Positions 39,415 to 40,024 of a stretch of DNA of 43,108 nt are shown in pieces (the stretch's first letter is position 1; each line of letters starts with the position of its first letter). Origin of the DNA: an uncultured bacterium (GTDB lineage Bacteria; Chlamydiota; Chlamydiia; Chlamydiales; Rhabdochlamydiaceae). The translations under genes were made by a program, and so were the position numbers. The stretch is from assembly GCA_964490565.1 (NCBI GenBank), contig CAZBCR010000002.1, positions 1 through 43,108 of the forward strand, given 5' to 3'. The notes beneath the pieces are model-generated. The model did not search any database, was not told where the DNA came from, and saw only the letters and a program-made list of their open reading frames with translations.

Positions 39415-39554
39415 TTAACATTAAATGATTTATGTCTTAATTTAAAATTATCACGCTTTTATATTAAATTAATAATGATTTAGTATACTAAAACTACCCG
39501 GGAAGTGTTAGCGCAGCCAACATTTGTACCCGCGGCAAAAACCATGAGGACTAT

Positions 39555-39677
39555 ATGGCTAGAACAAAATTTCTCCACAGCAAAGCTTTCAGAGCAAAAA
39601 AAATGAGATTGTCTAAAAAATTAGGCAAAATGTCTCGTGAACTGTACAGAATGTGCCGTCACTTGAAAAATCATTAA
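39555..39677 (+). CDS. Small highly basic protein, copy 1 (40 aa)
   Basis: MARTKFLHSKAFRAKKMRLSKKLGKMSRELYRMCRHLKNH; GAGGA RBS; own terminator; paralogue differs mostly by synonymous or conservative changes. Confidence 0.8.
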   Translation: MARTKFLHSKAFRAKKMRLSKKLGKMSRELYRMCRHLKNH

Positions 39678-39688
39678 TCGCGATCTTT

Positions 39689-39732
39689 TTTGAGATCAGG
39701 ATCTTTTCTGAATATCCTGGTCTCAAATTTTT
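39689..39732 (+). terminator. Intrinsic terminator after microprotein copy 1
   Basis: TTTGAGATCAGGAT...ATCCTGGTCTCAAA followed by TTTTT. Confidence 0.75.
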
Positions 39733-39862
39733 CAATCCACTAATCACTAGCACCTTACAATTTAGTTATAATAATACGCTAAATTTATTATAAATTAATA
39801 TTAATTTAGTATATTGAATGTGTCATGGCATATGTCATTGGCATAACCAAAACGAGGATATT

Positions 39863-39979
39863 ATGGCTAAAGTATGGAATTCAAAAGCTTATAGAGCAAA
39901 AAAAATGAAACTCACACGTAAACTGAACAAAATGTCACGTGAACTGCACAGAATGTGCCGTCATCTGAAACAGATGTAA
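39863..39979 (+). CDS. Small highly basic protein, copy 2 (38 aa)
   Basis: MAKVWNSKAYRAKKMKLTRKLNKMSRELHRMCRHLKQM; GAGGA RBS; own terminator. Confidence 0.8.
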   Translation: MAKVWNSKAYRAKKMKLTRKLNKMSRELHRMCRHLKQM

Positions 39980-39989
39980 TCGCGATTCT

Positions 39990-40024
39990 TTTGAGAGCAG
40001 GATTTTTTAAATCCTGCTCTCAAA
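39990..40024. terminator. Intrinsic terminator, probably bidirectional, between microprotein copy 2 and the 973 aa gene
   Basis: TTTGAGAGCAGGATTT-ttt-AAATCCTGCTCTCAAA perfect stem between convergent genes. Confidence 0.8.

What the first reader, a model, noticed from the sequence alone, without database searches (positions are those of the whole stretch)
39450..40024. Unannotated tandem pair of complete transcription units encoding 40 and 38 aa polycationic amphipathic-helix microproteins
Seen: the apparently empty gap after acpS holds two paralogous ORFs below the ORF-track cutoff, with shared core SKA[FY]RAKKM[RK]L[ST][KR]KL[GN]KMSREL[YH]RMCRHLK. They carry 14 and 13 K+R against one Glu, and one conserved Cys. 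Hydrophobic residues fall at 3-4 spacing (F12, L19, L23, M26, L30, M33, L37 in copy 1). Codon differences are largely synonymous (TTG/CTC, TTA/CTG, AGC/TCA, TCT/TCA, CAC/CAT), which suggests selection on the peptide. Each has a GAGGA RBS, TAATCGCGAT at the stop and a homologous terminator. Known: chlamydial elementary bodies condense DNA with basic Hc1/Hc2 proteins, and these peptides resemble neither. Inference: a possibly undescribed family of protamine-like or basic coiled-coil nucleic-acid binders. A ribosome-associated factor or a membrane-active cationic peptide are alternatives.
Basis: partly seen in the sequence, partly recalled or inferred. Interest (0 to 1): 0.8.

Follow-up and report, generated by a model that had tools for sequence, protein, structure and literature searches.

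The report
Basic zipper microproteins of Rhabdochlamydiaceae
These are two real, unannotated genes for 40- and 38-residue, strongly positive helical peptides from a family found here only in one group of environmental chlamydiae, and they likely pair up as a tiny coiled coil that would bind and help pack DNA in the dormant infectious form.

Summary
Both ORFs, their RBSs and hairpins are as described. They belong to an unnamed family: 44 members of 35-42 aa, in 37 of 129 Rhabdochlamydiaceae genomes and 0 of 309 other Chlamydiota genomes scored. All are intact and under purifying selection (pooled pS 0.34, pN 0.13). There is no Pfam, NCBIfam, PHROG or PDB family, and no homology to Hc1. Every member carries 12-14 K+R; the family shows a strict heptad, and AlphaFold gives one 30-residue helix. 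So this is a basic arm plus zipper, not a protamine. Corrections: the Cys is not family-conserved (11 of 44) and paralog differences are not mostly synonymous (6 vs 7). New: the gene appears at many loci as a promoter-ORF-hairpin unit. The hairpin keeps its sequence across 9 of 14 genera, and alone found two more members. The promoter type is shared with two true protamine-like microgenes elsewhere in this genome, whose Hc1 lacks its DNA-binding tail. Best reading (0.5, untested): an accessory late-stage nucleic-acid-binding coiled coil. Timing, dimerisation and binding are inferred only.

The parts
39450..39489 (+). Predicted promoter 1: 34-nt AT-rich block plus -10-like TATACT (39484-39489); no TTGACA
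   Evidence: D3; matrix score 34.1
39497..39536 (+). Predicted 5' leader stem-loop starting just after the inferred start site
   Evidence: predicted fold; an RNA-library contig of a relative begins at 39505
39546..39550 (+). RBS 1 (GAGGA)
39555..39677 (+). ORF1, 40 aa basic arm plus heptad helix (P0001)
39689..39727 (+). 3' hairpin 1, family-conserved stem GAGATCAGG..CCTG(A/G)TCTC; probable terminator or 3' stabiliser
   Evidence: (I5)
39776..39815 (+). Predicted promoter 2: AT-rich block plus -10-like TATATT (39810-39815)
   Evidence: (score 45.2)
39822..39846 (+). Predicted 5' leader stem-loop 2
   Evidence: predicted fold
39854..39858 (+). RBS 2 (GAGGA)
39863..39979 (+). ORF2, 38 aa paralog (P0002); the duplication predates the split of several related species
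   Evidence: (tree)
39990..40024 (+). 3' hairpin 2, 16-bp perfect stem
   Evidence: (I2)
39046..39414 (+). acpS, upstream neighbour only in this clade; not part of the unit

Best explanation
These are genes for a Rhabdochlamydiaceae-restricted family of 35-42-residue basic peptides that are predicted to form one long helix, likely pair as a short coiled coil, and would bind and bridge nucleic acid, most likely chromosomal DNA, as an accessory packaging or protecting factor probably made late, when the dormant elementary body forms. Shown: intact selected ORFs; net charge +10 to +13 in all 44; a heptad face (d = F12, L19, M26, M33, 40; a = K16, L23, L30, L37; small residues at 20, 27, 34; K22, E/D29, H36 at g); a stand-alone promoter-ORF-hairpin unit. 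Inferred: dimer formation (small e residues and the K22/E29/H36 series would suit a close-packed antiparallel pair with a basic arm at each end); binding of phosphate backbones; late timing; and a role in making up for a shortened or missing Hc1 together with two protamine-like microproteins that share the promoter type.
For: Charge is fixed: K+R 12-14 in 44 of 44 although identity to P0001 falls to 21%. Hydrophobic periodicity peaks at 103-105 degrees; helix 10-39, mean pLDDT 88.5. A promoter matrix trained only on this family scores at least 10 for 13 of 1611 SD-led 15-65 aa ORFs of this genome; 2 of the 11 non-target ones are stand-alone ORFs of 52% and 59% K+R with strong 3' hairpins, and only 4 of 1611 have at least 45% K+R (Fisher p 2.5e-4; cut-off chosen after seeing one of them). 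[quoted passage not shown] No HC2 match in this genome. All 5 two-copy genomes have a tail-less Hc1 (4, one clade) or no Hc1 match (1). Hc1 was not found in 14 of 37 peptide-positive vs 18 of 92 peptide-negative genomes (p 0.04, kin not independent). In 7 of 37 genomes the gene lies 0.2-1.7 kb upstream of, and co-oriented with, an extra Lys-tailed SWIB gene; the Waddlia SWIB protein binds all along the genome (PMC6426960, passages).
Against: No binding, dimer or timing data exist here. 23 of 37 peptide-positive genomes keep Hc1, most outside this genus with a normal tail (median tail K+R 10 vs 12, p 0.07), so this is no simple replacement. 92 of 129 family genomes, including near-complete ones, have no match. 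hctA of this genome does not share the promoter type (absent from the 13). The promoters match the Waddlia Euo consensus no better than shuffles (10.8 vs 10.6 of 15, 33 promoters), so late control is not shown. The same AT-rich promoter type precedes 40 of 1208 longer genes, many effector-like, so it is not specific. The SWIB linkage falls within one tree clade, a single event. A small basic chlamydial DNA-binding protein need not compact DNA (DdbA; PMC8343073, passages).
Confidence: 0.5

Rival explanations
1. An RNA-binding peptide: the Arg/Lys arm reads an RNA stem, either its own conserved 3' hairpin (autoregulation or mRNA storage) or rRNA, as a dormancy or ribosome-hibernation factor.
For: The 3' stem keeps its sequence while its loop varies from 3 to over 25 nt: best shared 9-mer in 28 of 42 sequences and 9 of 14 genera, against 6 of 44 and 4 of 12 for hctA 3' regions; 96.9% of cells paired, 5 of 10 pairs with compensatory change, 2 pairs invariant. 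A GTDB scan with the hairpin alone gave 34 loci, 8 with the peptide directly upstream, two of them missed by the protein model. Size and charge resemble small ribosomal or arginine-rich-motif peptides (recalled).
Against: No Pfam or NCBIfam ribosomal family matches; patchy in the family and never beside ribosomal genes; 12 of 44 members lack both arms at 2 mismatches or fewer; paired sites evolve slowly anyway, so conservation need not mean a reader.
Confidence: 0.22
2. A protein-binding helix: the hydrophobic stripe docks on a partner (the accessory SWIB domain, the Hc1 helical domain, RNA polymerase or a secretion chaperone) instead of on a second copy.
For: One narrow hydrophobic face with conserved S27 and E/D29; SWIB linkage in 7 genomes; SWIB/MDM2 folds bind amphipathic helices (recalled).
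Against: No partner gene travels with the unit across the family; Hc1 is not found in 14 of 37 positive genomes; the constant +12 charge is not explained.
Confidence: 0.13
3. A membrane-active cationic peptide or type I toxin.
For: Length, charge and strong amphipathicity (moment 0.66 and 0.76, shuffle p <= 0.0002); neighbours often include IS and toxin-antitoxin genes; convergent genes often end close to the hairpin.
Against: GRAVY about -1.0 to -1.1 and a narrow heptad face; no signal peptide or leader; no conserved transporter, immunity gene or antisense unit among neighbours; no Rfam match above chance.
Confidence: 0.09
4. A peptide delivered into the host cell, where the basic arm works as a nuclear-localisation or chromatin-binding signal.
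For: Its promoter type also precedes genes with Ser/Thr/Pro-rich N-termini typical of secreted substrates (0.25 vs 0.18, p 2e-4).
Against: The peptide's own N-terminus is basic and not of that kind; at 35-42 aa there is little room for a secretion signal plus a function.
Confidence: 0.06

Closest known systems
Chlamydial Hc1 (HctA, PF07432) and Hc2 (HctB, PF07382)
   Same: Small, highly basic, stand-alone genes in chlamydiae; the proposed job (nucleoid condensation at RB-to-EB conversion, PMC8343073 passages) is the same.
   Different: No homology (hhalign probability 3%); one third the size of C. trachomatis Hc1; one heptad helix, with no Lys/Ala tail or pentamer repeats; found in one family only; hctA here has another promoter type.
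Coxiella ScvA and Bacillus small acid-soluble spore proteins
   Same: Very small basic peptides tied to a dormant cell form (ScvA as small-cell-variant-specific: PMC6759588 passages; its size and DNA binding, and all SASP properties, are recalled).
   Different: No library match; dormancy-specific expression is not shown here; ScvA is recalled as Gln/Arg-rich without a zipper, SASPs as helix-turn-helix.
bZIP-type basic region plus leucine zipper (recalled)
   Same: Basic N-terminal arm followed by 3-4 heptads with a polar residue (K16) at an a position.
   Different: The zipper itself is basic all round, lacks e/g salt-bridge pairs and has small e residues; no Pfam match; no sign of sequence-specific binding.
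Small basic ribosomal or ribosome-associated proteins (bS22/mS38, bTHX, Sra, bL34; recalled)
   Same: 30-45 aa, Lys/Arg-rich, often missed by annotation.
   Different: No match; patchy and apparently moved between genera; own promoter and hairpin; hydrophobic heptad face.
DdbA (CTL0322) of C. trachomatis
   Same: Basic DNA-binding developmental protein (PMC8343073 passages).
   Different: About 18 kDa, phylum-wide, likely nuclease, does not compact DNA.

Membership tests
Hc1 (HctA) | N-terminal helical domain matching PF07432 | tested here: not met
   No Pfam hit; profile-profile probability 3% against 63 family Hc1 sequences; the genome has a separate Hc1 gene
Hc1 (HctA) | Lys/Ala-rich C-terminal DNA-binding tail | tested here: not met
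   Ala 6.7%, Pro 0.4%, heptad helix to the C-terminus
Hc1 (HctA) | Late expression and nucleoid condensation | not testable with these tools
   Needs stage-resolved RNA or protein data and a compaction assay
Hc2 (HctB) | Lysine-rich pentamer repeats, PF07382 | tested here: not met
   No repeats in the alignment, no hit
Protamine-like proteins | Low-complexity Arg/Lys clusters without a hydrophobic core | tested here: not met
   Seven columns 91-100% hydrophobic at heptad spacing, K+R 35%; contrast the 52-59% K+R ORFs of the same genome
Small ribosomal proteins | Match to a known family or solved ribosome chain | tested here: not met
   Pfam, NCBIfam, PDB sequence and Foldseek searches give no such match
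Small ribosomal proteins | Lineage-wide, vertically inherited presence | tested here: not met
   37 of 129 family genomes; genera are mixed on the gene tree
Small ribosomal proteins | Physical association with ribosomes | not testable with these tools
   Needs fractionation or cryo-EM
Coiled-coil / bZIP-like dimers | Heptad a/d hydrophobic repeat in one helix | tested here: met
Coiled-coil / bZIP-like dimers | Dimer formation | not tested
Euo-repressed late genes | Euo consensus overlapping a sigma66 promoter | tested here: inconclusive
   89% AT block upstream of the -10, but the match to the Waddlia consensus equals shuffles; Euo sites are degenerate (PMC4989314 passages)
Type I toxin-antitoxin | Hydrophobic toxin and antisense RNA | tested here: not met
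   GRAVY about -1; no Rfam family; antisense transcription itself could not be tested

The most novel reading that the evidence does not exclude
Part of the Rhabdochlamydiaceae has moved from the canonical Hc1/Hc2 system to a set of co-regulated, unannotated microproteins for packing the elementary-body genome: two protamine-like peptides (23-25 and 31-35 aa) plus this 35-42 aa basic zipper. The zipper would act as a minimal two-armed DNA bridge, travel between genera as a promoter-ORF-hairpin cassette, and possibly recognise its own sequence-conserved 3' hairpin.
Probability: 0.25. Interest if true: 0.8.

Novelty: new variant of a known kind. Interest (0 to 1): 0.56.

Why it matters
If the reading holds, a 38-residue helix would be among the smallest bacterial chromosome-organising proteins. 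It would also explain how chlamydiae with a tail-less or missing Hc1 and no detected Hc2 still make a condensed infectious form. The peptides are cheap to synthesise and to test in E. coli, so the question is directly testable although these organisms are known mostly from metagenome assemblies. Even if the function differs, the result shows a layer of conserved sub-45-aa basic genes that annotation misses or extends from upstream starts, and a 3' RNA stem conserved enough to find new members.

Tried and rejected
Known families: no convincing hit in Pfam (on 26 of the 44 members, best shared hit MbeD_MobD in 4 at E 0.016), NCBIfam and PHROGs (all 44), PDB sequences (best NarQ helix E 0.046), Foldseek PDB or Rfam. 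Hits outside the family were rejected: G397 lies in a 641-aa frame, G063 is partial in a 93-aa frame (fetched, not examined further), G034 has no start codon and lies antisense to a 172-aa ORF; P0009 and P0017 are repeat proteins. No fused form was found: the single 'longer' hit is an upstream-extended member (weak test). The hairpin is not a genome-wide repeat: both arms occur only at these two genes. A looser hairpin pattern over 129 genomes gave many chance hits, and among the 30 loci returned (56 matches unlisted) only known members. Euo consensus: no enrichment. A clean Hc1 replacement was rejected. Expression: contigs from RNA libraries X1, X2 and X4 cover ORF1 of a relative (5 letter differences) and not acpS. 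X1 and X2 give identical contigs and count once; the runs were found with this stretch; X1/X2 also hold near-identical rpsG/fusA pieces at similar depth. So neither enrichment nor stage is shown, and DNA carry-over is not excluded. Complex prediction and the protein atlas were not available, so dimer geometry and language-model look-alikes are open. Three look-ups of earlier findings returned nothing.

Full report
Observation. The gap after acpS (39046-39414) holds two ORFs, 39555-39677 (40 aa) and 39863-39979 (38 aa), 69% identical over 36 residues. Each has GAGGA 4 nt before ATG, TAATCGCGAT at the stop, a 3' hairpin, and upstream a duplicated AT-rich block ending in TATACT or TATATT. The predicted transcripts fold with 5' and 3' stems (z -3.1 and -3.8). 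'Largely synonymous' is not (6 synonymous, 7 non-synonymous codons in the core), and only hairpin 2 passes the terminator scan.

The family. phmmer and then profile searches over unannotated six-frame genomes gave 42 matches at E <= 3.3e-7 in 37 of 129 genomes (14 of 40 genera) of the window's family, none with an internal stop; the next hit is E 0.035 inside a 325-aa frame (the last model includes the members it scores). Of 309 scored genomes of other Chlamydiota families, 3 had weak hits, none accepted as a member (one genome unscored). Record titles of loci identical to relatives' loci name the family as Rhabdochlamydiaceae. The 1.84-billion-protein search gave 15 hits: 13 members and 2 repeat proteins. 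Where named, members are 'hypothetical protein', and several are called from upstream starts. With one further two-copy locus the set is 44 sequences of 35-42 aa: ATG start 44 of 44, SD-like site 43 of 44; pooled pS 0.34 and pN 0.13 over 10 disjoint pairs (p 2e-12), paralog dN/dS 0.34, some close pairs near or above 1 on few changes. The peptide is therefore real and selected.

Anatomy. K+R is 12-14 and net charge +10 to +13 in all 44, though identity to P0001 falls to 21%. Columns 19, 23, 26, 30, 33, 37 and 40 are 91-100% hydrophobic and F12 89%; K16 sits at an a position; 20, 27 and 34 are small; the only acid, E/D29, is in 43 of 44; Cys34 is in 11, Ser in 26. Periodicity peaks at 103-105 degrees. 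AlphaFold gives one helix, residues 10-39, pLDDT 88.5. This is a basic arm plus a short zipper. An antiparallel dimer with an arm at each end is my inference from the small e residues and the K22/E29/H36 series; it could not be modelled.

The unit. Neighbours differ widely: acpS, dnaA, ABC transporters, MsrAB, IS and toxin-antitoxin genes. On the gene tree the window's genus falls in three places and a g23 copy groups with g5 copies at pS 0.29. This suggests transfer or differential loss; support is modest and no clade test was run. Five genomes have two copies, and this duplication predates several species. The promoter-like element is found in 33 of 44 (self-trained matrix). The 3' stem pairs in 96.9% of cells with compensatory changes at 5 of 10 pairs (on 33 of 44 members chosen for having it), yet keeps its sequence: best shared 9-mer in 28 of 42 sequences and 9 of 14 genera, against 6 of 44 and 4 of 12 for hctA. 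A GTDB scan with the stem alone returned 34 loci; 8 have the peptide just upstream, including all 6 with chlamydial titles and two members the protein model had missed; the other 26 had no model hit. Why the stem sequence is kept is unexplained.

Context for function. The window's genome encodes a 61-aa Hc1 without the Lys/Ala tail and has no HC2 match (assembly 74% complete). In C. trachomatis the C-terminal region carries the DNA-binding domain (PMC3469542, passages). Hc1 was not found in 14 of 37 peptide-positive and 18 of 92 peptide-negative genomes (five negatives rechecked with the own Hc1 and no positive control), and all five two-copy genomes lack a tailed Hc1. Against a simple swap, 23 of 37 keep Hc1, mostly with a tail outside this genus (63 of 97 Hc1 sequences examined). 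In 7 genomes of one tree clade the gene precedes an extra Lys-tailed SWIB gene; a Waddlia SWIB protein binds genome-wide (PMC6426960, passages). The family's promoter matrix also picks out two stand-alone protamine-like ORFs on contig C1 (23 aa, 52% K+R, score 21.0; 32 aa, 59%, score 12.5) among 13 of 1611 short SD-led ORFs (p 2.5e-4, threshold set after the fact). The 32-aa locus is matched in 14 of 19 genomes of the genus. But hctA is not in that promoter class, the class also precedes 40 of 1208 longer, often effector-like genes, and the Euo consensus (PMC4989314, passages) is not enriched. Late timing is thus inferred, not shown. RNA-library contigs cover ORF1 of a relative in two independent data sets, but housekeeping pieces are present at similar depth in one of them, so they say little.

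Mechanism and rivals. Most likely (0.5) is an accessory nucleic-acid-binding coiled coil that helps pack or protect the elementary-body chromosome. Rivals: an RNA or ribosome binder, possibly of its own hairpin (0.22); a partner-binding helix (0.13); a membrane-active peptide or type I toxin (0.09); a host-delivered peptide (0.06).

Known kinds and novelty. It would work like Hc1/Hc2, ScvA or spore SASPs but is a member of none: no Pfam, NCBIfam, PHROG, PDB or Foldseek match and hhalign probability 3% to Hc1. Five literature searches (listings only, open-access library) showed no description of it. Papers read as passages only: PMC9816063, PMC4989314, PMC4652624, PMC8343073, PMC6426960, PMC3469542, PMC6759588. 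No supplements were read; proteomic or gene-family tables there could list these ORFs. Properties of ScvA (size, DNA binding), SASPs, bZIPs, arginine-rich motifs and small ribosomal proteins are recalled.

Verdict. A real, new, lineage-restricted microprotein family with a conserved cassette design and an untested function. New variant of a known kind; interest 0.56.

Noticed in passing
G000:C1 minus strand, start 5912 (L272:218-313): Unannotated 32-aa ORF, 59% K+R, no acidic residue, strong RBS, AT-rich promoter, conserved leader and its own conserved 3' hairpin; locus matched in 14 of 19 genomes of the genus, 31-35 aa ORFs seen in 11 of 12 fetched loci; no Pfam hit. A true protamine-like candidate.
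   Followed up: partly
G000:C1 minus strand, start 8542; also L275, L277, L281, L282, L284: Second unannotated basic microprotein family, 23-25 aa, about 50% K+R, ending in a Cys/Trp motif, close to the 32-aa gene and with the same promoter type.
   Followed up: partly
G000:C124:251-436 (L130); L169-L173: Hc1 is cut to about 61 aa without the Lys/Ala tail in this clade; a sister clade of the genus has no Hc1 match.
   Followed up: partly
G000:C28:7948; L252, L255, L256, L267, L268: A third, accessory SWIB paralog with a histone-like Lys-rich N-terminal arm, besides the core SWIB and the TopA fusion.
   Followed up: partly
G000:C28 minus strand, start 6281: 50-aa basic ORF about 1.6 kb from the Lys-tailed SWIB gene.
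   Followed up: no
window 36507-37142 and 37233-37838 (-): Tandem paralogous ORFs of about 200 aa with signal-peptide-like starts and terminal Phe, outer-membrane-like, no Pfam hit; both have AT-rich upstream regions scoring 12-13.
   Followed up: no
window 40055-42976 (-): 973-aa ORF with weak TPR hits converging on hairpin 2; close relatives have a glycosyltransferase family 17 gene here instead, so it is probably a recent replacement.
   Followed up: no
L083 and L098: Records titled 'proteobacterium' and 'Verrucomicrobiae' carry this cassette; L083 is 84% identical to the window locus and L098 is the contig of family genome G260, so the titles look wrong.
   Followed up: no
L238:4710-5018; L051, L056, L065 downstream: A KGG/LEA-like stress protein, and short His/Asp-rich ORFs, lie next to the peptide gene in several genomes.
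   Followed up: no
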